Positions 470 to 8,744 of a stretch of 64,000 bases of DNA are shown piece after piece (the first letter of the stretch is position 1; every line of letters starts with the position of its first letter). A program made the translations under genes and the position numbers. The DNA lies in the NCBI GenBank assembly GCA_019637395.1, contig JAHBVR010000012.1, forward strand, positions 129,842 through 193,841. Direction: 5' to 3'. Below the pieces are notes generated by a model that ran no database searches, was not told the DNA's origin, and worked only from the letters and a program-made list of their open reading frames with translations. Origin of the DNA: Vulcanimicrobiota bacterium (GTDB lineage: Bacteria; Vulcanimicrobiota; Xenobia; Xenobiales; JADMJV01).

Positions 470-1420
470 ATGTCCCTGGCCCAGCTCCCCTTTGTGGAAG
501 CCCTCCAGCCTTGCCAGCGCATTCTCATCGCCGGTGCCGGCGGCGGTTTTGACGTGGTGGCGGGACTGCCGCTCTACGAATATCTGATGGCCCAGGGCAA
601 ACAGGTATGGCTGGCCAGTCTGTCTTTTTCCGAGCTGACCAGGGCCCGGGGGCGCAAACTGGGAGCCTACATCGTGGAAGTCGACGCCGACTCGGGCGGA
701 GACGACGATTATTTCCCCGAGCGTTACCTCAGTGAATGGCTGGGAGTGGGCGGAGAATATGTTCCTGTCTACTCCTACAAAGCGGTCGGGCCGATGGTCA
801 TGCTGGAAATCTACCAGCAACTGGCCAAAGAGTTCGAGTTGGACACCCTGATCCTGGTCGATGGCGGCACCGACATCTTGATGCGCGGCGACGAGCCGGC
901 CCTGGGCACTCCCATGGAGGATATGTGCAGTCTGGCCGCCGCCGATATGCTGGAAGTGCCCCATAAATTCGTGGTCTGTCTGGGTTTCGGCGTGGACGTC
1001 TTTCACGAGGTCTGTCATCACTATGTGCTCGAGGCCATCGCCGACCTGACCCGTCACGGGGAATATCTCGGGGCCTTCTCGTTGACGGCCGATATGCCCG
1101 AGTTTCAAGCTCTGGTGGAGGCCGTCGACTACATCTGCAGGCGCACTCCCGGCAAGGAGTCCATCGTCATGACCTCGGTGGTGGCGGCCGGACGCGGCTG
1201 CTTTGGCGACTTTCACCCTACCGAACGCACCAGGGACAACAAGTTATTCCTCAATCCGCTGATGTCGATGTATTTTTGTTTTCAACTGAGCGGACTGGCG
1301 CGGCGCTGCTTGTACCTGGATTATCTGAAAGACAAATATGGTCGCTGGGAAGTACACCGGGGCATCTGCAATTTTCTCAGCACAATTACTCCTAGAGAAT
1401 GGAAGCGTTTACCGTTGTGA
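470..1420 (+). CDS. uncharacterised protein with N-terminal glycine-rich GxGGGxD loop (possibly DUF1152-like)
   Basis: 316-aa ORF. Motifs RILIAGAGGGFDVVAGLP and LILVDGGTDILMRGDE suggest a phosphate/nucleotide-binding fold. Its stop overlaps the next gene (TGATG at 1418-1422). Family assignment from memory only, low certainty. Confidence 0.6.
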   Translation: MSLAQLPFVEALQPCQRILIAGAGGGFDVVAGLPLYEYLMAQGKQVWLASLSFSELTRARGRKLGAYIVEVDADSGGDDDYFPERYLSEWLGVGGEYVPVYSYKAVGPMVMLEIYQQLAKEFELDTLILVDGGTDILMRGDEPALGTPMEDMCSLAAADMLEVPHKFVVCLGFGVDVFHEVCHHYVLEAIADLTRHGEYLGAFSLTADMPEFQALVEAVDYICRRTPGKESIVMTSVVAAGRGCFGDFHPTERTRDNKLFLNPLMSMYFCFQLSGLARRCLYLDYLKDKYGRWEVHRGICNFLSTITPREWKRLPL

Positions 1421-1437
1421 TGGAGAAGGCCCCGCCC

Positions 1438-2805
1438 ATGTCGGCCCCCCAACTTGAATTCTACTCCTCGATCGTGGTCCTCACCGGTTCCGGCCTGTCC
1501 GCCCGCTCAGGCGTGCCCGTCGACCCGGACCTGGGCCAAGACGGCGATTGGTCTTCGCTTTACCCCGTTCACATGTTGGCTTTGCAGGCCCAGCCGAACG
1601 ACTGCCACCTGGCCCTGGCCGAATGGGAAAAACGCGTGCTCGAACGGCGCGGCCAGTTCACCCTGCTCACTCACAACACCGACGGCCTGCATCAGCGCGC
1701 CGGTAGCCAAAACGTGGTGGAATTGAATGGCTCCATGCACCGCCTGCGCTGCGCGGAGTGCGATTGGAACGAAGACCGCTTCTGGGAACTCCCGCTACCC
1801 GGATGCCCCCATTGCGGCGGCCAGACCCGCCCCGACGTGGCCGGGTTCGGCCGGGCCGCTCCCAGTCAGGCCGAATGGTCGGCCCAGCGAGCCCTGCGCC
1901 GCTGCGATCTTTTTCTGGCCCTGGCCGTCAGCGAGAATACTCCGCGCGTCAGCGATTTTGCCCATCTGGCGCACTTTGCCAAAGCCCGCAACGTGCTGGT
2001 CAGCCTGGACCATACCCCCCTGCTGGCCGAGGAATTCGACGAGGTCCACGATGCCTCGGCGGAAGATTTCGTGGAGGAAATCTGGAAGAGCGCTCAAGCC
2101 CTTAAACAGCCCAACCGACTGATGCCCCTCAGTCCTCCCGATAGCCCCAACGCACCCCAGGAAATCGCCGATCTGAAGCCGTTGCAGAAATCCTTCACTT
2201 CCGGCTACCTGGCCATCTACGATATCGCCGACTTCAAGACACGTAACCATCTGCTGGGGCACGCCCAGGGCGATCAGGATCTGGAAGAATTTTCCCAGGT
2301 GGCCGCGGCCGTGGGGGTGCAGGCCTGCATGCGCTATTCTCAAGACCAGTTCGTGGTCCTCAGCCCCCGGCTGGAAACTCTGGAGGCGCTCCAGGTGACT
2401 TATGCCAAAGAACAGGAAGTGCGTTCGGGTTATCGGGCCCTGGCCTGCCGCGCCGGCCATCTGCGCAGCCAGGTCATCACTCACAATCTGCGCCTGCGCC
2501 GAGGGGTGCGCGTTGCCTATGTGATGGTCTTCCGGGGTCAGGCGCTGGATGACGCCGCCGCCCAGGTGGCCGAGCGCATCAAACTGGCTCCCATCGACCA
2601 GCTGGTGCCCCTGAACGAGATCCAGGAATCCCCCTACCGGCCCTTCTCCGCCTTGATCGGCGAGTTCTCGGTGCTGCAGTGCCCTTTCTGCGAAGGCACC
2701 GAATTCGAATGGAACTCCGAAGACGTGGCCCACTTCGGACGCGAGGGCAAGTGCCGCCACTGCGGTAGCGACGTGGAATTCGAGAACTTCACGGAAAGCG
2801 CGTGA
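1438..2805 (+). CDS. sirtuin (SIR2)-family domain fused to degenerate GGDEF-like domain and C-terminal Cys4 zinc ribbon
   Basis: Sirtuin motifs VVLTGSGLSARSGVP (GAGIS-like), THNTDGLHQRAGS (TQNIDxLH), zinc tetrad RCAEC...CPHCGG, RPDVAGFG, but the ELHG catalytic His reads ELNG. Followed by YDIADFKTRNHLLGHAQGD...RYSQDQFVVL (GGDEF fold with GGDEF->SQDQF) and CPFCEG...CRHCGS. Start chosen at ATG 1438 (GGAGAAGG SD 8 nt upstream); alternative in-frame starts at 1399/1420. Confidence 0.8.
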   Translation: MSAPQLEFYSSIVVLTGSGLSARSGVPVDPDLGQDGDWSSLYPVHMLALQAQPNDCHLALAEWEKRVLERRGQFTLLTHNTDGLHQRAGSQNVVELNGSMHRLRCAECDWNEDRFWELPLPGCPHCGGQTRPDVAGFGRAAPSQAEWSAQRALRRCDLFLALAVSENTPRVSDFAHLAHFAKARNVLVSLDHTPLLAEEFDEVHDASAEDFVEEIWKSAQALKQPNRLMPLSPPDSPNAPQEIADLKPLQKSFTSGYLAIYDIADFKTRNHLLGHAQGDQDLEEFSQVAAAVGVQACMRYSQDQFVVLSPRLETLEALQVTYAKEQEVRSGYRALACRAGHLRSQVITHNLRLRRGVRVAYVMVFRGQALDDAAAQVAERIKLAPIDQLVPLNEIQESPYRPFSALIGEFSVLQCPFCEGTEFEWNSEDVAHFGREGKCRHCGSDVEFENFTESA

Positions 2806-3245
2806 AGCTGCTGTTTTTTTTGCTGCTCTGCCACGGCTGCGGTCAGTTTTCCACCCGGCTGGCCCTACCGGCTCTCCGCGACTGGTTTCCCCACCTGAAA
2901 AAACCCGACTGGCACCCGCCCGCCTGGGTCTTTGGTAAGGTCTGGTTGCTCCTCTACACACTCATGGGCGTGGCCGGTTGGCGACTTTATTGCGCGAAAT
3001 CAAGTCTGCTGGTGCTCTGGCTGGCCCAGTTGGGCTTCAACCAGCTCTGGACCTATCTTTTCTTCGTCCTCAGGTCCCCCGGCTTAGCTTTAATCGACAA
3101 TTTCTGCCTGTGGATCACGCTGGGAGTTTATGTGATCCTGTGCTGGCCGCTCGACCCGGTAGCCGCCGTCCTGTTGGTGCCGGAATGGCTTTGGATCGGC
3201 TTCGCCAGCACCGTCAACTACGCCACTTGGAAGCTGAATCGTTAA
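2802..3245 (+). CDS. tspO: TspO/MBR family tryptophan-rich sensory protein
   Basis: 147 aa, 5 predicted TM helices, Trp-rich; motifs LKKPDWHPPAWVFGKVWLLLYTLMGVAGW typical of TspO. GTG start overlaps the upstream stop (GTGA at 2802-2805). Confidence 0.85.
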   Translation: MKLLFFLLLCHGCGQFSTRLALPALRDWFPHLKKPDWHPPAWVFGKVWLLLYTLMGVAGWRLYCAKSSLLVLWLAQLGFNQLWTYLFFVLRSPGLALIDNFCLWITLGVYVILCWPLDPVAAVLLVPEWLWIGFASTVNYATWKLNR

Positions 3246-3282: not shown

Positions 3283-4209
3283 ATGATTTCATCGGCGGAC
3301 CCGATCGCGGCCACCTTCGAGTTTGTGCCGCTGCAGGAATGCCCGCTGTGCGGCCATCCGGAACGTTCTCCGGCCTATCAGCGCAGCTACCAGGGATTGG
3401 AGATCCGCTGGGAGCGCTGCCGGGCCTGTCGTTTCGTATTTCAAAACCCCAAGTTGAGCCGCGCATCGCTCAATTCCATCTATCGCTCCTCCACCTACTG
3501 GAATGTGCAGAAGATGGAGACGCGTAGCGGCCTGCGGCTGGGCTATAGCGACTACGCCAGGGGGGAAGCCTACCGTCTGCGCCAGTCGCGCTGGCGCCTG
3601 CGTCAGATTCACCGCTTCGTGCCTGCGGGTTCGCGCTGGCTGGACGTGGCCTGCGCCACCGGCTTTTTCGTCAAGACTCTGGTGGACGCCGGCATGCAGG
3701 CCTGGGGCGTGGAGCTTTCGGAGCAGATGGCCAGCTACGGTATCGAGCGCTACGGGGTTGACATCGAAGCCCGCGATTTCGACAGCTACACGCCTCCCGG
3801 CCCGCCCCTGCGAGCTCTCTCCATCTGGGGGGCCGATTCGAACTTTTATGACCCGGTGGAGACTTATCGGCACGCCAACCGAATGCTGGGCCCGGACGGC
3901 TGGCTCTTCTTCAACTTCTGGGACTTCGATCACCTCATCCGGCCGCTGCTGGGCGAATTCAAGATCGGCCTGAACGGGCTCTACCAGTTGAATCGCACGA
4001 ACGTCCACCTGTTGCTGGAAAAATCCGGCTTCCAGGCCGAGCTGGTCAAGATGGAGTGGTCGTTTGCCTCGCTGGAAGCCATCCTCTCCCTGACCGGCCG
4101 CTTCCTGCCCTTGCAATGGCTGGGCCATCTGTCCCTGGCCCGGGCCATCTTCCAGCTGCCCACCTTCAGCGGCTTCCTGGTCGCCGCGCGCAAAATCCGT
4201 GAAGCTTAA
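3283..4209 (+). CDS. class I SAM-dependent methyltransferase with N-terminal Cys4 zinc ribbon
   Basis: CPLCGH...CRAC zinc-ribbon followed by motif I LDVACATGFF and a Rossmann-fold MTase core (Methyltransf_13-like architecture). Confidence 0.75.
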   Translation: MISSADPIAATFEFVPLQECPLCGHPERSPAYQRSYQGLEIRWERCRACRFVFQNPKLSRASLNSIYRSSTYWNVQKMETRSGLRLGYSDYARGEAYRLRQSRWRLRQIHRFVPAGSRWLDVACATGFFVKTLVDAGMQAWGVELSEQMASYGIERYGVDIEARDFDSYTPPGPPLRALSIWGADSNFYDPVETYRHANRMLGPDGWLFFNFWDFDHLIRPLLGEFKIGLNGLYQLNRTNVHLLLEKSGFQAELVKMEWSFASLEAILSLTGRFLPLQWLGHLSLARAIFQLPTFSGFLVAARKIREA

Positions 4210-5473
4210 AGGGCTTGCCGCCGCGCTGCTCTTAGCCACCGGGACGGTCTGGGCCCAACCGCATATCCAGATTCGTTTTGAAGCGGGCTCTCAGCGAGCC
4301 TTTCTGGAGGCCGACCCGCTGCCCACGCGTCTGGCCGCCATGCTCAACCGTCAGATCCAGCTGCCCCGCGATTTGCCCATCGTCTATCGCGACGATCGGG
4401 CCGTCAATGCCTGGTACAGTCCCAACAACCACAGCATCACCGTCAGTTATCGGCTGGCCGAGGTATTACGCGGGCAAATGGAGGCCGAGAGCGCTCGCGG
4501 AGCGATGGACTTTATCCTGATGCACGAACTGGGCCACGCTTTAATCGGCGAACTCGACCTGCCTCAGGTCGGCAGTGAGGAAAATGCCGCCGACGAGTTC
4601 ACCACGCTAGTGTGCGCCCAGGCCCTGGGAGAAGAAGGCCGCCGGGTGGCGCTGGCGGGAGCCCGGGCTTTCTGGTTGTTGGGGGATGGGCAATACAACC
4701 TGGCCGCGCTCCCCTTTTACGATGAGCACCGGTTGGAACGGCAGAGGTTCTATACGATTCTGGCCAATCTGGGGGCAGCTGATCCCGCTCTGCGGCCGTC
4801 CCTCGCTCCAATCGTCCCGTACACCCGGCTGCGCGAGGCTCAAGAGAGTTATCCCGGCAAGGTCGACCGCTGGCAGCGCCTGCTGGCCGGAAGCGTGGAA
4901 ACGGTGGCGCCCGGGTCCGGAAAGCTGAAGATTCAGGCTATCGCGCCGCTGCCATTGGCCCGGCTGGCCGGCATTCTCGAGCGCTCTTATCGCTTACCGC
5001 GCGACTGGGTGGTCGAGCAGCGCGACGCGCGCACCCAATTCCTGCCCCTGAGCGGCTATCTGGTCTATGCGGCGGGGGCGAGTGCCGAGGACTTTCTGCT
5101 GGCCTTCTGTTACGGACTGATTAGCGATCTGAAGCTACCCTACACAGGCGAACTCGGAGATGCGGCCGCCGAACTGGCGGCGGTGCTGATGGCCGGTCGC
5201 TCGGACCTGCGCCCTCTGGCCCGATCCGCGCTGGCCCGTTACGAGCAACTGGGCCGGGCCCACAAGAGCGTGCTGGATGTGCAATATTGGGACGCCACCG
5301 CCCAACCCGAGCAACGCTATTTCCAGATGCTCGGCTACCTCTATTGTCAGGACCCCGCCGGCTACCCGGAAGCCAGAACCCGCATCCCCGCGAAACGCCT
5401 TCGCTCGATAGGCTTCGAATATCCCCGCAAAAAGCGCAACTGGGCCCGTCTTCTAAGTCCTTACCAGCGCTAA
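4199..5473 (+). CDS. secreted putative zinc metallopeptidase (DUF4344-like, HExxH)
   Basis: GTG start; signal peptide MKLKGLAAALLLATGTVWAQP; LMHELGHALIGELD...EENAADEFT (HExxH + downstream E) as in DUF4344 putative metallopeptidases. Overlaps upstream MTase stop by 11 nt. Confidence 0.65.
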   Translation: MKLKGLAAALLLATGTVWAQPHIQIRFEAGSQRAFLEADPLPTRLAAMLNRQIQLPRDLPIVYRDDRAVNAWYSPNNHSITVSYRLAEVLRGQMEAESARGAMDFILMHELGHALIGELDLPQVGSEENAADEFTTLVCAQALGEEGRRVALAGARAFWLLGDGQYNLAALPFYDEHRLERQRFYTILANLGAADPALRPSLAPIVPYTRLREAQESYPGKVDRWQRLLAGSVETVAPGSGKLKIQAIAPLPLARLAGILERSYRLPRDWVVEQRDARTQFLPLSGYLVYAAGASAEDFLLAFCYGLISDLKLPYTGELGDAAAELAAVLMAGRSDLRPLARSALARYEQLGRAHKSVLDVQYWDATAQPEQRYFQMLGYLYCQDPAGYPEARTRIPAKRLRSIGFEYPRKKRNWARLLSPYQR

Positions 5474-6642
5474 GCGGACTTTTTAGCTTCCTCGGCTTCC
5501 CGCTTCATTTGCAAGGCCCGCTTGACGGCTTTGCCCGGGTCGACCAGGCCGGCGCCGCCGAGGATGCCGGGGGTGTCTTTCATGCCTTCGGCGGTCTCGA
5601 TCAGCACCTGCTTGACCTGGGCCGGCGTGAGGTCGGGGTTGGCCTGCATGACCAGAGCGGCGCAGCCGGCCGTGGTCGGCGTGGCCATGCTGGTGCCGGA
5701 GAGCAGGCAGTAGTAAGGCGGCAACTTGGTGACGTCGGCGTCCTGCAGCTCCGAATTGGGCGCCAGGAAGCTGACCATATTGACGCCGGGAGCGGCAATG
5801 TCGGGCTTGACCAGACCGTCGCGGGTGGTGGGACCGCGGCTGGAGAAGAAGGCCATGGTGTCGTCTTCGTGGCCGGGAGTGTTCTTGTCGTCATAAGCAC
5901 CGACCGTCAGCGCATCTTTGGTGATAGCCGGGGTGCCGATGGTCTTAACGCCGGGACCGGAGTTGCCGGCCGCGATGATGGGCATCAAACCGGCCTTGAT
6001 GGCGTCGTTGACGGCCTGGGCGATGACGTCGTGCTGCTCGTGCAGGTTGGCGTTGGCTCCCAGGGACATGCTCAGCACTTTGATGCCCAGGCGATCTTTG
6101 TTGTCGATGCACCAGCGGATGCCGCGCGCGATGTTGGACAGCGAACCACCGCCCTCGCCGCCGAGCACTTTGACGCCGACGATGTTGGCTTCATAAGCCG
6201 GACCCTTGAATTTACCGCCGGCCTTGGTGCCGTCGCCGGCCACCAGGCCCGCGCAGTGACTGCCGTGGCCGTTGTCGTCGTAGGCGTTCTCGACGCCGTC
6301 TTTGCCACCGCAGAAATCCTTGAACTCGATGAGGCGGTCACCCAGGTCCGGGTGCGGAGCCACGCCGGTGTCGATGACGGCCACCGTCACGCCTTTGCCG
6401 GTGATGCCCATGTTCCAGGCATCCTGGACCGTCAACACTTCCTTGATGGAGTCGATGCGGTCGGCCGGGCGGGGCAGCGCGTAGGCCAGCGGAGTCAGCT
6501 CCATCGGGGTATGGATGCCGGCTTCGTAGCTCTGGATGAACACTTCGTCCTTGGGCTCGTGAGCTACCGAGGCGGGAGCGTGGAGCTTCTGGGCGTTCTT
6601 GAGCGCTTGCCACTGAGGCGTCTGGTTGGCCTGAACTTGCAT
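5470..6642 (-). CDS. subtilisin-like serine peptidase (S8 family), no obvious signal peptide
   Basis: Catalytic triad motifs VAVIDTGV (Asp), HGSHCAG (His), GTSMATP (Ser). Start set at ATG 6642 (MQVQANQ...) with GGAGG 5 nt upstream; the longer listed ORF start (6759) lacks an RBS. Confidence 0.85.
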   Translation of the reverse strand: MQVQANQTPQWQALKNAQKLHAPASVAHEPKDEVFIQSYEAGIHTPMELTPLAYALPRPADRIDSIKEVLTVQDAWNMGITGKGVTVAVIDTGVAPHPDLGDRLIEFKDFCGGKDGVENAYDDNGHGSHCAGLVAGDGTKAGGKFKGPAYEANIVGVKVLGGEGGGSLSNIARGIRWCIDNKDRLGIKVLSMSLGANANLHEQHDVIAQAVNDAIKAGLMPIIAAGNSGPGVKTIGTPAITKDALTVGAYDDKNTPGHEDDTMAFFSSRGPTTRDGLVKPDIAAPGVNMVSFLAPNSELQDADVTKLPPYYCLLSGTSMATPTTAGCAALVMQANPDLTPAQVKQVLIETAEGMKDTPGILGGAGLVDPGKAVKRALQMKREAEEAKKSA

Positions 6643-6818
6643 GGGTTCCTCCGAAAATTGTTCCGCCGACACCATAGCAAGACCCCCACTACGGAAATGG
6701 AACCAGAGTGTTAACAAGACGCCACCTGTGAACTTGCTCGCCGTGTAACATCGCGGCAAAACCTATTTCCCGGAGGGAGTCCTATACTGCCATCACATAC
6801 ATAGGAGGCACACCCCTC

Positions 6819-8744
6819 ATGAAGGTCCAGTCCGTCAACTACCAGATCGCCAGCAACAAACCGGTCGCCACCAAGGCGCCCGCCCCCAAGACCGAGTCCA
6901 CCCCGGTTTCCAAAGAACCGATGGATGTCGGCACCATTGCTGAGAAAAAGGACTGGACCGTGCTGGTCTACTTGAATGGCAACAACGCCACCGCCAGCCA
7001 GGCCGTGACCACGATGCGCCAGCTCGAGTTCGTGGGCAGCAACGACAAGATGCATATGGCCGCCCAATTGGCCCGCCCCAAAGCGCTTTTGGACAAGTGG
7101 TCGCACGACTGGAACGGGGTGCGCCGCTATGAGGTCAAGCACAACGGACAGGAATTCAACGCGGGCGCGGTGGTCATCGACGGGCTGACCGGCTTTCTAC
7201 CGGGCAAAACCAAAGGCATTAAATCCGATGTGCTCAAGGATATGGGCGACGTGGACATGGGCAAAGCCCAGACCCTGGCCGAATTCCTCGAGTGGGGTGT
7301 CACAAAATACCCGGCCAAGAATTACATGGTGGTGATGCAGGGCCCCTCGGAAGGCGTCTCCGGCATGATGCACGACGTGCTCCACGACTCGCAGATGAGC
7401 GTGGCCGACCTGGGCGCCGCCTTCAAGCAAGTGCACGAGAAGACCGGCAAGAAAATCGACATTGTGGCCCTCAATGGTTCGGCCACCAATTCCTTGGAGG
7501 TGGCCAACGAACTGAAGGACCACGCCAGGCTGCTGGTCGGCTCGCAGGACATCCAGAGCGGGCAGTCGATGCCCCTGGCCATGGTGATGAACGAAATCGC
7601 CAACGTCAGCAAGGACGGCGAACAGAGCCCGCTGACCGTGGCCCAGTACATGTTGCTGATGAATTCGATGGCTCCCGGCGCGCTCTCCATCGTCGACCTG
7701 GACAAAATCGGGCCGGCCAAAGAAGCCTGGAACGATCTCGCCAAAAATCTAATCTCCGCCGGAGTCAGCCGCGACCAGTTGCACAGCATTCTGGAAAAGA
7801 CTCAGGATTTCCAGGGCGCCTCCAAGAACAGCGCCTATGGTAATAGCCGCGACGCCATTCACTTCGCCAAACTGGTCGGCGAAGAAGTGGCCGACGACAA
7901 AGTCAAAGCCGCCGCCGCCAAGGCCGTGGAAGCTCTGGAAGCCTCACTGGTCGGCGACGTGGCCAACGGCAAGCGCATGGAAGAAGCCAACGGTATCTCC
8001 GTCTTCGCCCCCACCAACTATGGTTTCATGCGCCCCGACGGCACCCCCGTCATCAAAGACTCGCTGCGCGACGCCGAGTATTCCAAGACCAACTTCGCTC
8101 AGGAAACCCAGTGGGACGAGCTGCTCAGCGGCGCCGCCAAAGACGGCAAGCTGAACAACACGCTGAAGAAGTTCGGCCTTTCCGAGAATGGCGTGGACAA
8201 AGCCCACGGCCTTTACCACCAGCACATCGGCAAAGTCAATGCAGCCCTCGGATTCGCCGGCATGGCCGGTTACATGAACGGCATCCAGGCCTGGCGCGGA
8301 GCCGACCCCAACGGCTTTATGCTGCTCGGACCGCAGACGGCCGTCTACGCCGGTGTGGTGGGTGCCGGCAACGAAGCCCTCAAAGGCGTGGGCCGTATCA
8401 TCAACGGCGCGGCCAATCTCAAAGACGGCGGCGAAGTGGCCCAGGGTGCCTTCGACGTGGCTTCGGCGGCCGCCAAGGGCGTGGCTAACCTGGGCTACAT
8501 CGTGCCGGCCCTCAAGCCCTACGCCCAGACGGCCGGCATGCTGATGTTCATGTCGCCCTGGCTGCGCAACATCTACGGCGTCTACGATCAGTACAAATCG
8601 ATCAAGGACGGCGTGGAACTGGGCATCGGTGATAACAAAATGTCCACCACCCAGCAGGTGGCTGCCGCCGCCTCGCAATACTACGGCAAGCAGAATCTGC
8701 AGGACCACGCGGAACGCAGCCTGTGGCAAAAATTCGCCGGTTAG
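6819..8744 (+). CDS. clostripain-like cysteine peptidase (C11 family) with Gly/Ala-rich C-terminal region
   Basis: WTVLVYLNGNN motif and overall C11 organisation (His/Cys dyad region HD...ALNGSATNS); AGGAGG RBS upstream; C-terminal ~170 aa is Gly/Ala-rich and low complexity. Confidence 0.75.
   Translation: MKVQSVNYQIASNKPVATKAPAPKTESTPVSKEPMDVGTIAEKKDWTVLVYLNGNNATASQAVTTMRQLEFVGSNDKMHMAAQLARPKALLDKWSHDWNGVRRYEVKHNGQEFNAGAVVIDGLTGFLPGKTKGIKSDVLKDMGDVDMGKAQTLAEFLEWGVTKYPAKNYMVVMQGPSEGVSGMMHDVLHDSQMSVADLGAAFKQVHEKTGKKIDIVALNGSATNSLEVANELKDHARLLVGSQDIQSGQSMPLAMVMNEIANVSKDGEQSPLTVAQYMLLMNSMAPGALSIVDLDKIGPAKEAWNDLAKNLISAGVSRDQLHSILEKTQDFQGASKNSAYGNSRDAIHFAKLVGEEVADDKVKAAAAKAVEALEASLVGDVANGKRMEEANGISVFAPTNYGFMRPDGTPVIKDSLRDAEYSKTNFAQETQWDELLSGAAKDGKLNNTLKKFGLSENGVDKAHGLYHQHIGKVNAALGFAGMAGYMNGIQAWRGADPNGFMLLGPQTAVYAGVVGAGNEALKGVGRIINGAANLKDGGEVAQGAFDVASAAAKGVANLGYIVPALKPYAQTAGMLMFMSPWLRNIYGVYDQYKSIKDGVELGIGDNKMSTTQQVAAAASQYYGKQNLQDHAERSLWQKFAG

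What the first reader, a model, noticed from the sequence alone, without database searches (positions are those of the whole stretch)
1438..2805. Sirtuin domain with Asn replacing the catalytic His, fused to a GGDEF fold with SQDQF signature and a Cys4 zinc ribbon
Seen in the translation: the N-terminal ~230 aa carry every sirtuin landmark, namely the GAGIS-like loop VVLTGSGLS, TQNIDxLH as THNTDGLHQRAGS, the zinc tetrad CAEC...CPHCGG and RPDVAGFG. Where CobB and SIRT1 have (I/V)xxHG with the catalytic His, this protein reads VVELNGS. The alignment is anchored by the flanking NVV and RLRC, so the H->N change is probably real. The following ~150 aa match the diguanylate-cyclase core DIDHFKxxNDxxGHxxGD as DIADFKTRNHLLGHAQGD. 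The GG(D/E)EF signature reads RYSQDQF and there is no RxxD I-site. The protein ends in CPFCEG...CRHCGS. Two classical enzyme folds that both look catalytically disabled, in one polypeptide, suggests a ligand-sensing or scaffolding protein rather than a deacylase or cyclase; it could sense NAD+/ADP-ribose, GTP or c-di-GMP. I am not aware of this architecture being described.
Basis: partly seen in the sequence, partly recalled or inferred. Interest (0 to 1): 0.75.

Follow-up and report, generated by a model that had tools for sequence, protein, structure and literature searches.

The report
Dead sirtuin fused to degenerate GGDEF
This is a real, conserved gene from uncultured Vulcanimicrobiota bacteria in which a sirtuin that has lost its catalytic residues is joined to an unusual GGDEF-type nucleotide-binding domain and a zinc ribbon, so it is most likely a regulatory or sensor protein, not the deacetylase or diguanylate cyclase that databases call it.

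Summary

New here:
- All 13 orthologues (54-93% identity, Vulcanimicrobiota MAGs) lack the His. That column is variable (N/A/C/K/Y/R), and several NAD-contact motifs are also lost.
- Both domains are under strong purifying selection (dN/dS about 0.03-0.1).
- The GGDEF-like plus zinc-ribbon half is a free-standing ~220-aa protein family that I found named in no library or paper searched.
- A distant full-length homologue, P0149, has the same architecture with an intact sirtuin motif set. The fusion is therefore older, and the sirtuin died in this lineage.
- The palm domain keeps both metal-binding Asp residues and the guanine-recognition Asn/Asp pair, so it is not shown to be dead.

Best reading (about 0.5): a non-catalytic sirtuin scaffold or sensor joined to a guanine-nucleotide-binding module, translationally coupled to a DUF1152 gene. 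Main rival (about 0.27): the palm domain is a non-canonical cyclase. Verdict: new variant of known kinds, moderate interest.

The parts
1438..2805 (+). Coding sequence of the sirtuin / GGDEF-like / zinc-ribbon protein (455 aa from ATG 1438). The frame is open from ATG 1399. GTG 1417 and ATG 1420 are alternative starts.
   Evidence: ORF list. GGAGAAGG lies 9 nt upstream of ATG 1438, and the stop is TGA 2803-2805. There are 13 full-length orthologues.
1421..1428 (+). Shine-Dalgarno-like GGAGAAGG ahead of ATG 1438, directly after the DUF1152 stop codon (TGA 1418-1420).
   Evidence: Sequence read.
1450..2094 (+). Sirtuin-derived domain (residues 18-232 of the 468-aa frame): Rossmann core plus zinc module.
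1726..1728 (+). Codon for Asn110, which sits in the catalytic-His column.
   Evidence: Alignment to Sir2-Af1. Column content in 14 sequences: N3 A4 C2 K2 Y2 R1, never His.
1750..1815 (+). Sirtuin zinc tetrad C118, C121, C136, C139 (CAEC...CPHC).
   Evidence: Invariant in 14/14 sequences.
2095..2184 (+). Pro/Ser-rich linker (residues 233-262), predicted to be disordered.
   Evidence: pLDDT <50 for residues 237-253. Least conserved segment, mean pairwise identity 0.53.
2185..2598 (+). GGDEF-family palm domain (residues 263-400), without the N-terminal DxLTGLxNR segment.
2221..2247 (+). DIADFKTRN: the beta1 metal-binding Asp (D275), K280 and the base-recognition Asn (N283).
   Evidence: Invariant in 14/14 sequences. 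Aligned with DLDHFKRIN of SadC.
2338..2352 (+). SQDQF in the GG(D/E)EF column. D316, Q317 and F318 are invariant.
2674..2796 (+). C-terminal Cys4 zinc ribbon (C428, C431, C452, C455).
   Evidence: Invariant in the orthologues and in the 25 aligned free-standing relatives. Weak Lar/TFIIB-type zinc-ribbon hits.
470..1420 (+). Upstream DUF1152 gene. Its stop abuts or overlaps the start region of the fusion gene. It is the conserved operon partner in this lineage.
   Evidence: Pfam DUF1152 E=6e-20. The same order, abutting or overlapping, is seen in L001, L002, L025 and L026.
2802..3245 (+). Downstream TspO/MBR membrane-protein gene. Its GTG start overlaps the fusion gene's TGA (GTGA).
   Evidence: Pfam TspO_MBR E=5.5e-37. 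Junction sequence. Present downstream in L001, L002 and L025 but not in L026 or L003.

Best explanation
The gene encodes a regulatory protein, not an enzyme of either named class.

Its N-terminal half is a sirtuin of the CobB / Sir2-Af1 / SIRT5 type. It has kept its Rossmann core and zinc module but lost the catalytic His and several NAD+ contacts. It cannot run NAD+-dependent deacylation and now serves as a structural scaffold, protein-binding surface or residual small-molecule pocket.

Its C-terminal half is a pre-existing module: a divergent GGDEF palm domain plus a Cys4 zinc ribbon. This module also exists as a free-standing ~220-aa protein in many bacteria. Its family-wide conserved residues are the ones that hold a guanine nucleotide in diguanylate cyclases, namely Lys, the base-recognition Asn and Asp, and the Arg before the hairpin. 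The GG(D/E)EF catalytic hairpin is not conserved. The most likely job of this half is to bind a guanine nucleotide (GTP or a relative).

The ancestral fusion, still seen in P0149, put this nucleotide-binding module next to a sirtuin that retains the full catalytic motif set. In the Vulcanimicrobiota (Xenobia) lineage the sirtuin chemistry was lost, and the output is presumably protein-protein interaction. The translationally coupled DUF1152 product is the obvious candidate partner.

Shown: domain identities, motif states, conservation, purifying selection, the free-standing family, the intact-sirtuin homologue and the operon structure. Inferred: nucleotide binding, lack of catalysis and partnership with DUF1152.
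For: Sirtuin identity and loss of chemistry:
- Domain identity.
- The His column is N/A/C/K/Y/R in 14 sequences.
- The FR of the cofactor loop, GTS and the strand Asn are lost relative to the closest canonical sirtuins.
- The substrate-staple loop 'VxFGE' is variable among orthologues.
- Scores are far below the NCBIfam CobB cut-offs: 120.5 against 243, and 103.2 against 320.

Selection:
- dN/dS is 0.080 (sirtuin), 0.028 (palm) and 0.039 (zinc ribbon) for the least saturated pair.
- Mean pairwise identity is 0.73 / 0.78 / 0.72 for the domains against 0.53 for the linker.

Module family:
- An exhaustive phmmer search found 81 hits, most of them 215-230 aa and covering the palm domain plus zinc ribbon.
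- In 46 members, N is present in 45/46, the base Asp in 44/46, R in 44/46 and K in 40/46. The beta1 metal Asp is Asn in 25/46, and the fourth hairpin position is K, E, R or Q.
- This pattern fits conserved ligand binding better than conserved two-metal catalysis.
- 18 of the 26 sequences in alignment A3 (the window's C-terminal half plus 25 free-standing members) hit Pfam GGDEF.

P0149:
- It aligns collinearly over both domains (E=2e-52).
- It is the reciprocal best non-family hit for each domain.
- It keeps GAGIS, PTYR, TQN, ELHG and GTS.

Operon:
- Junction sequences.
- DUF1152 pairing recurs in L001, L002, L025 and L026.

Precedent for nucleotide control of a sirtuin: c-di-GMP binds and inhibits E. 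coli CobB (bioRxiv 10.1101/362293).
Against: - No ligand binding was tested.
- In this particular orthologue group both metal-binding acids (D275, D316) and K395 are invariant. That is more than pure base recognition needs, and it is what an active palm enzyme would keep.
- Active mCpol cyclases lack the GGDEF motif (PMC12657218).
- N93, D95, G30 and S34 of the sirtuin NAD pocket are invariant, so some NAD-related ligand binding cannot be excluded.
- The DUF1152 link is seen only within one lineage. It is absent from the most distant orthologue (L003) and from P0149's locus, so it may be inherited synteny and not functional coupling.
- I could not inspect model coordinates or the PAE, so interdomain contacts are unknown.
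Confidence: 0.5

Rival explanations
1. Sensor-output enzyme. The palm domain is a working, non-canonical nucleotidyl cyclase or transferase that uses D275 and D316 for two-metal chemistry, as mCpol does. The dead sirtuin is its N-terminal sensory domain, for example for nicotinamide, NAD+, ADP-ribose or an acylated protein. This mirrors the usual 'N-terminal sensor, C-terminal GGDEF' layout.
For: D275, K280, N283, D292, R312, D316 and K395 are invariant in 14/14 sequences. The palm domain has the lowest dN/dS of the protein among the closer pairs (0.028-0.057). OptS/mCpol makes cyclic dinucleotides although the GGDEF motif is nearly absent (PMC12657218). The domain order is that of typical diguanylate cyclases. 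N93 and D95 of the nicotinamide pocket are retained.
Confidence: 0.27
2. The sirtuin half still uses NAD+ without the His, as an ADP-ribosyltransferase or NADase, in the way class M sirtuins (SirTM) do.
Against: In SirTM the His is replaced by an absolutely conserved Gln that pairs with a conserved Arg. Here the column is variable (N/A/C/K/Y/R), so no side chain there is under selection. The FR of the cofactor loop, the GT of GTS and the adenine-ribose Asn are lost. No macrodomain, GcvH-L or LplA2 gene is nearby.
Confidence: 0.08
3. It is part of an anti-phage defence system, with a SIR2 effector and a nucleotide-signalling palm domain.
For: SIR2 domains and palm-domain cyclases both recur in defence systems (PMC12657218). 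The zinc ribbon has weak Lar-like hits. The gene is coupled to a small membrane-protein gene, TspO.
Confidence: 0.04
4. It is a decaying gene, an assembly chimera or a sequencing accident.
For: Both signature motifs are degenerate. All sequences come from metagenomes.
Against: The ORF is intact in the window and in 13 independent clusters from many samples. dN/dS is 0.03-0.13 for the folded domains in the six closest pairs. Many columns are invariant across both domains. The architecture recurs in P0149, a 2-member cluster seen on 4 contigs.
Confidence: 0.01

Closest known systems
Class III/U sirtuins (Sir2-Af1, CobB, SIRT5)
   Different: No catalytic His, and the column is variable. FR, GTS and the strand Asn are lost, TQN reads THN, and the helical module is about 25 residues shorter. 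Scores are far below the CobB equivalog cut-offs. It is fused to a palm domain.
Class M sirtuins (SirTM), His-less ADP-ribosyltransferases (PMC4518038)
   Different: SirTM has an invariant Gln-Arg pair in place of the His and intact NAD binding. Here the position is unconstrained and the NAD contacts are eroded. There is no macrodomain/GcvH-L/LplA2 operon.
Degenerate GGDEF domains that act as nucleotide sensors. From my own knowledge: the GTP-binding GEDEF domain of Caulobacter PdeA/CC3396, and FimX, LapD and PelD/PopA as c-di-GMP receptors.
   Same: GGDEF fold with a non-canonical signature. Substrate-site base-recognition residues are retained, as in the PdeA type.
   Different: No RxxD I-site, so it is not a PelD/PopA-type receptor. 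No EAL partner domain. It carries a C-terminal zinc ribbon, lacks the N-terminal GGDEF segment and is fused to a sirtuin.
mCpol / OptS minimal CRISPR-polymerase palm cyclases (Panoptes, PMC12657218)
   Same: A small palm domain in which the GGDEF motif is nearly absent but one Asp on beta1 and one acid on the hairpin remain. Here these are D275 and D316.
   Different: Sequence and predicted fold place the window domain with true GGDEF domains. There is no 2TM-beta effector partner and no defence context.
E. coli CobB / c-di-GMP / DgcZ (YdeH) loop (bioRxiv 10.1101/362293)
   Same: A functional link between a sirtuin and a GGDEF protein or its nucleotide: c-di-GMP binds and inhibits CobB, and CobB deacetylates the cyclase. 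The P0149-type fusion could be a hard-wired version of this link.
   Different: In E. coli these are two separate, active enzymes. Here there is one polypeptide, the sirtuin is inactive and the GGDEF is non-canonical. The CobB residues implicated (R8, R17, E21) lie in an N-terminal segment that I did not map onto this protein.

Membership tests
Sirtuin / SIR2 (PF02146) | Profile match and sirtuin fold (Rossmann plus zinc-binding small domain) | tested here: met
Sirtuin / SIR2 (PF02146) | Catalytic His in the (I/V)xxHG motif | tested here: not met
   Asn110 aligns with the His of Sir2-Af1. The column reads N3 A4 C2 K2 Y2 R1 in 14 sequences.
Sirtuin / SIR2 (PF02146) | Complete NAD+-binding motif set (GAGxS, xPxFR, TQNxD, GTS, strand Asn) | tested here: not met
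   G..S, N93 and D95 are kept. FR is lost, Q is replaced by H (13/14), GTS reads AVS and the Asn reads Leu.
Sirtuin / SIR2 (PF02146) | NAD+-dependent deacylase activity | not testable with these tools
   Needs a biochemical assay.
CobB equivalog (NCBIfam NF040867 / NF001753) | Score above the curated cut-off | tested here: not met
   103.2 against 320, and 120.5 against 243.
Class M sirtuin (SirTM) | Invariant Gln replacing the His, paired Arg, and an operon with macrodomain/GcvH-L/LplA2 | tested here: not met
   The column is variable. The neighbours are DUF1152 and TspO. Criteria taken from PMC4518038.
GGDEF domain (PF00990 / TIGR00254) | Profile match and fold | tested here: met
Diguanylate cyclase (active GGDEF) | GG(D/E)EF hairpin signature | tested here: not met
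   SQDQF. Column content: S12/A1/H1, Q13/S1, D14, Q14, F14.
Diguanylate cyclase (active GGDEF) | Metal-binding beta1 Asp and third-position acid; guanine-recognition Asn and Asp | tested here: met
   D275, D316, N283 and D292 are invariant in 14/14 sequences. Aligned to SadC, SiaD and PleD.
Diguanylate cyclase (active GGDEF) | c-di-GMP synthesis from GTP | not testable with these tools
   Needs an enzyme assay.
I-site c-di-GMP receptor GGDEF (PelD/PopA type) | RxxD five residues before the signature | tested here: not met
   The equivalent tetrad is VGVQ, with G306 and V307 invariant.
mCpol / Panoptes OptS | Minimal palm domain with two catalytic Asp, linked to a 2TM-beta effector in defence loci | tested here: inconclusive
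Defence-type SIR2 (ThsA, DSR, SIR2-HerA, SIR2-APAZ) | Match to defence SIR2 models and a defence-island context | tested here: not met
Free-standing 'mini-GGDEF + zinc ribbon' family (unnamed; P0122, P0125-P0201) | About 200 residues with [DN]-x-A-D-x-K-R-R-N ... G-x-x-x-D ... R-x-[GA]-G-D-x-W ... CPxC ... CxxC | tested here: met
   Full-length module matches with E down to 5e-20. The aligned Asn and four Cys are invariant. This orthologue group deviates at the hairpin: G is replaced by Q and W by F.

The most novel reading that the evidence does not exclude
A pseudo-sirtuin that has been converted from an enzyme into a sensor pocket for an NAD-related metabolite or an acylated protein. It would gate a non-canonical GGDEF-lineage palm enzyme (D275/D316) that makes a so-far unknown guanine-containing signal. 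The signal would be read by the co-translated DUF1152 and/or TspO proteins. This would make the widespread, uncharacterised 'mini-GGDEF + zinc ribbon' proteins a new class of nucleotide-signal generators or receivers outside both c-di-GMP signalling and phage defence.
Probability: 0.18. Interest if true: 0.8.

Novelty: new variant of a known kind. Interest (0 to 1): 0.5.

Why it matters
- It is a clear bacterial case of a classical zinc-module sirtuin kept under strong purifying selection after losing its catalytic His and much of its NAD site. A relative with an intact motif set (P0149) is available for comparison. This gives a natural before-and-after pair for asking what a sirtuin fold does when it is not an enzyme.
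- It brings to light a ~220-aa GGDEF-like plus zinc-ribbon protein family. The family is scattered across bacteria, has no curated model, no structure and no paper found in the searched library, and its motif pattern points to nucleotide binding.
- Public annotations of the orthologues ('diguanylate cyclase', 'NAD-dependent deacetylase') are probably both wrong. This matters for metabolic and signalling inventories of Vulcanimicrobiota/Eremiobacterota, a phylum known almost entirely from metagenome-assembled genomes.
- The physical sirtuin-GGDEF fusion echoes the reported CobB / c-di-GMP / DgcZ loop and suggests that this link is older and more general.

Tried and rejected
- The first AlphaFold run, on the 14-sequence alignment, was too poor to use (pLDDT 60). 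It was replaced by a 106-sequence alignment (pLDDT 87.9).
- The afdb50 fold library was unavailable, so I could not look for the same architecture among AlphaFold database entries.
- A profile word-indexed search with the module alignment returned only 4 proteins.
Context for the free-standing family therefore rests on 7 members only, with no recurrent neighbour.
- For DUF1152 there is no paper and no PDB relative by sequence or profile. The homologue search shows a large family, much wider than the fusion. It gives no functional clue.
- PADLOC, phage and plasmid searches were negative, so the defence or mobile-element idea was dropped.
- The promoter and terminator scan was not above chance.
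- The kinase-like reading of the long C-terminal extensions in P0138, P0145 and P0199 rests on an E=0.6 hit only and was not pursued.
- I could not access model coordinates or the PAE. Pocket geometry and interdomain contacts were therefore not analysed.
Full report
**1. What is at the coordinates**

The + strand carries an open frame from 1399 to the TGA at 2803-2805. GGAGAAGG (1421-1428) lies 9 nt upstream, and several orthologues begin at the equivalent Met. The upstream DUF1152 gene ends at TGA 1418-1420, inside the possible start region. The downstream TspO gene starts at GTG 2802, overlapping the stop as GTGA. The three genes are therefore packed as a translationally coupled unit. Residue numbers below refer to the 468-aa frame from 1399.

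**2. Domain identities**

- Pfam gives SIR2 at E=2e-22 (residues 52-178).
- Pfam gives GGDEF at E=1.7e-6, 28.3 bits against a gathering score of 23.8. The match covers only profile positions 31-105 of 161.
- phmmer against PDB sequences puts Sir2-Af1 first (E=2.7e-22). It aligns 'sqnvvelNgsmhrlrc' with 'srnvihlHgslrvvrc', so Asn110 is in the catalytic-His column.
- The C-terminal half alone hits SadC, SiaD, DgcB and PleD. 'rysqdqfvvlsp' aligns with 'ryggeefvlllp', so SQDQF is in the GG(D/E)EF column.
- The I-site-equivalent tetrad is VGVQ.
- An AlphaFold2 model from a 106-sequence alignment has pLDDT 87.9 and pTM 0.75, with a disordered linker at residues 237-253.

**3.

Thirteen full-length orthologue clusters (54-93% identity) exist, all from metagenomes. 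The species-representative genomes that carry the gene are labelled Vulcanimicrobiota or simply 'bacterium'. One contig is binned as Xenobiales. Vulcanimicrobiota is a phylum with the classes Vulcanimicrobiia and Candidatus Xenobia.

In the 14-sequence alignment the His column reads N3 A4 C2 K2 Y2 R1 and is never His. It is clearly unconstrained, while the neighbouring Gly is invariant.

Compared with the closest canonical sirtuins (35-42% identity), the family shows these further changes:
- it lacks the Phe-Arg of the 'IPTFR' cofactor loop;
- it has a helical module about 25 residues shorter;
- it reads THN for TQN (13/14);
- it reads AVS for GTS;
- it has Leu for the Asn of the 'INPD' strand.

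The 'VxFGE' loop, which in sirtuins staples the substrate peptide (established sirtuin structural knowledge), varies among orthologues. The family retains G30, S34, N93, D95, the LHxxAGS block and the Cys4 zinc tetrad. NCBIfam CobB models score far below their cut-offs. I conclude that NAD+-dependent deacylation is lost. Some residual pocket for a nicotinamide-ribose-like ligand cannot be excluded.

**4. Not an accident**

Nei-Gojobori dN/dS for the least saturated pair (window against L004, dS 0.7-1.2) is 0.080 for the sirtuin domain, 0.028 for the palm domain and 0.039 for the zinc-ribbon region. The other five close pairs give 0.03-0.13 for the folded domains where dS was computable. The two most distant pairs reach 0.16 and are near saturation. 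Mean pairwise identity is 0.73, 0.78 and 0.72 for the three folded parts against 0.53 for the linker. Both 'disabled' domains are under strong purifying selection.

**5. The C-terminal half is a pre-existing module**

I ran an exhaustive phmmer search with residues 235-468 against 1.84 billion cluster representatives. It found 81 proteins at E<=1e-3, 24 of them at E<=1e-10. Most are 215-230 aa and match across the palm domain and the zinc ribbon. Eighteen of the 26 sequences in alignment A3 (the window's C-terminal half plus 25 free-standing members) hit Pfam GGDEF. No NCBIfam model covers them.

Across 46 free-standing members the column content is as follows:

| Column (window numbering) | Content |
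|---|---|
| beta1 metal site (275) | D 21, N 25 |
| Lys (280) | 40/46 |
| Base-recognition Asn (283) | 45/46 |
| Base-recognition Asp (292) | 44/46 |
| Arg before the hairpin (312) | 44/46 |
| Hairpin | [G/A]-G-[D/N/E]-x-W |
| Fourth hairpin position (317) | K, E, R or Q |
| Zinc-ribbon Cys | four Cys invariant in the 25 aligned members |

The family conserves what holds the base and phosphate of a guanine nucleotide in diguanylate cyclases (role of PleD N335/D344: established knowledge). It does not conserve the two-metal catalytic set. This is the main reason I favour nucleotide binding over catalysis as the module's general function.

The seven free-standing members whose loci I could read have no recurrent neighbour. 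They have no match in the phage or plasmid collections.

**6. A homologue with an intact sirtuin**

P0149 (700 aa; a 2-member cluster on 4 contigs) aligns collinearly with the window protein over both domains (31% identity, E=2e-52). It is the reciprocal best non-family hit for the sirtuin domain and for the module separately. It shares the short helical module but keeps GAGIS, PTYR, TQNVD, ELHG and GTS. Its palm hairpin reads RQDGHF.

The simplest history is one ancestral fusion of a sirtuin with the full catalytic motif set to the module, followed by loss of sirtuin chemistry in the Vulcanimicrobiota lineage. A distant homologue has canonical motifs, but all close ones do not, and the derived state is selected.

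**7. Is the palm domain really dead?**

Within the 14 orthologues D275, K280, N283, D292, R312, D316, Q317, F318 and K395 are invariant. The Panoptes work shows that mCpol/OptS palm domains make cyclic dinucleotides although the GGDEF motif is 'nearly absent', using Asp6 and Asp57 (PMC12657218). SQDQF alone therefore does not prove inactivity.

Several points argue against activity:
- Gln replaces the hairpin Gly that is 45/46 conserved in relatives.
- Gln replaces the fourth-position Glu.
- The N-terminal GGDEF segment is missing.
- No dimerisation element is evident.

I rate an active non-canonical cyclase at about 0.27.

**8. Context**

DUF1152 immediately upstream of the fusion gene, abutting or overlapping it, recurs in L001, L002, L025 and L026, whose orthologues are 68-71% identical to the window protein. 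TspO follows in L001, L002 and L025 but not in L026. Neither gene flanks the 54% orthologue (L003) or P0149.

DUF1152 is a large family (more than 3,600 hits among the scored candidates), far wider than the fusion. It has no PDB relative and no paper in the library. PADLOC finds nothing for the fusion. The operon link is real in this lineage but uninformative about function.

**9. Mechanism proposed**

*Shown:* a sirtuin fold without its catalytic and several NAD-binding residues; a GGDEF-lineage palm domain with retained nucleotide-contact residues; a zinc ribbon; strong selection on all three; modular history; tight coupling to DUF1152.

*Inferred (confidence about 0.5):* the protein is a non-enzymatic regulator. 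The module binds a guanine nucleotide. The sirtuin-derived domain provides a binding surface or residual ligand pocket. The output is protein-protein interaction, possibly with the DUF1152 product. In the P0149-type ancestor the same module would have coupled nucleotide status to deacylase activity. This is conceptually like c-di-GMP inhibition of CobB and CobB deacetylation of the cyclase YdeH/DgcZ in E. coli (bioRxiv 10.1101/362293).

Rivals and their refuting experiments are listed separately.

**10. Novelty and score**

No paper in the searched library describes a sirtuin-GGDEF fusion, a degenerate GGDEF with a zinc ribbon, or DUF1152. Public names for the orthologues conflict: 'diguanylate cyclase' and 'NAD-dependent deacetylase'. 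Both domain folds are well known, and degenerate members of each are known, for example SirTM (PMC4518038) and the sensor-type GGDEF domains recalled from my own knowledge in the closest-known list.

I therefore class this as a new variant of known kinds. Interest is moderate (0.5). It offers a clean natural pseudo-sirtuin with an intact-motif relative for comparison, plus a previously unnamed mini-GGDEF family. But there is no functional read-out, and the host phylum is known almost entirely from metagenome-assembled genomes.

Noticed in passing
window 470-1420 (+): DUF1152 gene whose stop (TGA 1418-1420) abuts or overlaps the start region of the fusion gene. The family is large (more than 3,600 hits), with an invariant GAGGG-D N-terminal motif and DGG-D-LMRGDE and H..CH blocks. 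It has no PDB relative by profile and no paper in the library.
   Followed up: partly
window 2787-2807 and 2802-3245 (+): The TspO/MBR gene starts at a GTG that overlaps the fusion gene's stop (GTGA). A 7-bp hairpin followed by a T-rich run straddles the junction. The terminator-like count in the region is not above chance, so it may mean nothing.
   Followed up: partly
P0122, P0125-P0201 (loci L009-L017, L019-L024): A free-standing ~220-aa 'mini-GGDEF + Cys4 zinc ribbon' family in diverse bacteria (a cyanobacterial-looking locus, a Korobacteraceae MAG, soil metagenomes). The consensus is [DN]xADxKRRN ... R-x-[GA]-G-D-x-W ... CPFC ... CxxCGA. There is no curated family, no recurrent neighbour and no phage or plasmid copies.
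   Followed up: partly
P0149 / locus L018 8001-10103: A 700-aa protein with an extra Cys-rich ~260-aa N-terminal region, a sirtuin with all catalytic motifs intact, and the same palm plus zinc-ribbon module (hairpin RQDGHF; the second Cys pair reads C-x-C). It is probably the ancestral-type active version of the fusion.
   Followed up: partly
P0128, P0138, P0145, P0199: The same module sits at the N-terminus of 458-741-aa proteins with long shared C-terminal extensions of unknown fold. One extension type has only a faint similarity to a protein-kinase C-lobe (E=0.6 to CTR1). The module seems to be combined with different partner domains.
   Followed up: no
L020 6343-7666 and L021 1441-2764: In one lineage the free-standing module gene sits 113 bp downstream of a DksA/TraR-type zinc-finger gene on the same strand. 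This is a single case, noted because DksA-type proteins work with ppGpp.
   Followed up: no
window 3283-4209 (+): SAM-dependent methyltransferase with an N-terminal CxxC...CxxC motif. It has a weak PADLOC hit to mad2 (E=1.2e-8). It follows TspO on the same strand and overlaps the next gene (DUF4344 metallopeptidase, 4199-5473).
   Followed up: no
window 5470-8744; L001 and L025: An S8 peptidase gene (- strand, 5470-6759) and the 641-aa ORF at 6819-8744 occupy the same positions as the Peptidase_S8 and Peptidase_C11 genes that follow the operon in the 68-71% identical loci. Local synteny therefore seems stable, but I did not run either window ORF through a family search.
   Followed up: no
P0009, P0010, P0013 (database names): Orthologues are named 'diguanylate cyclase' by NCBI and 'NAD-dependent (SIR2 family protein) deacetylase' by JGI. 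Given the motif states, both names are probably misleading.
   Followed up: yes
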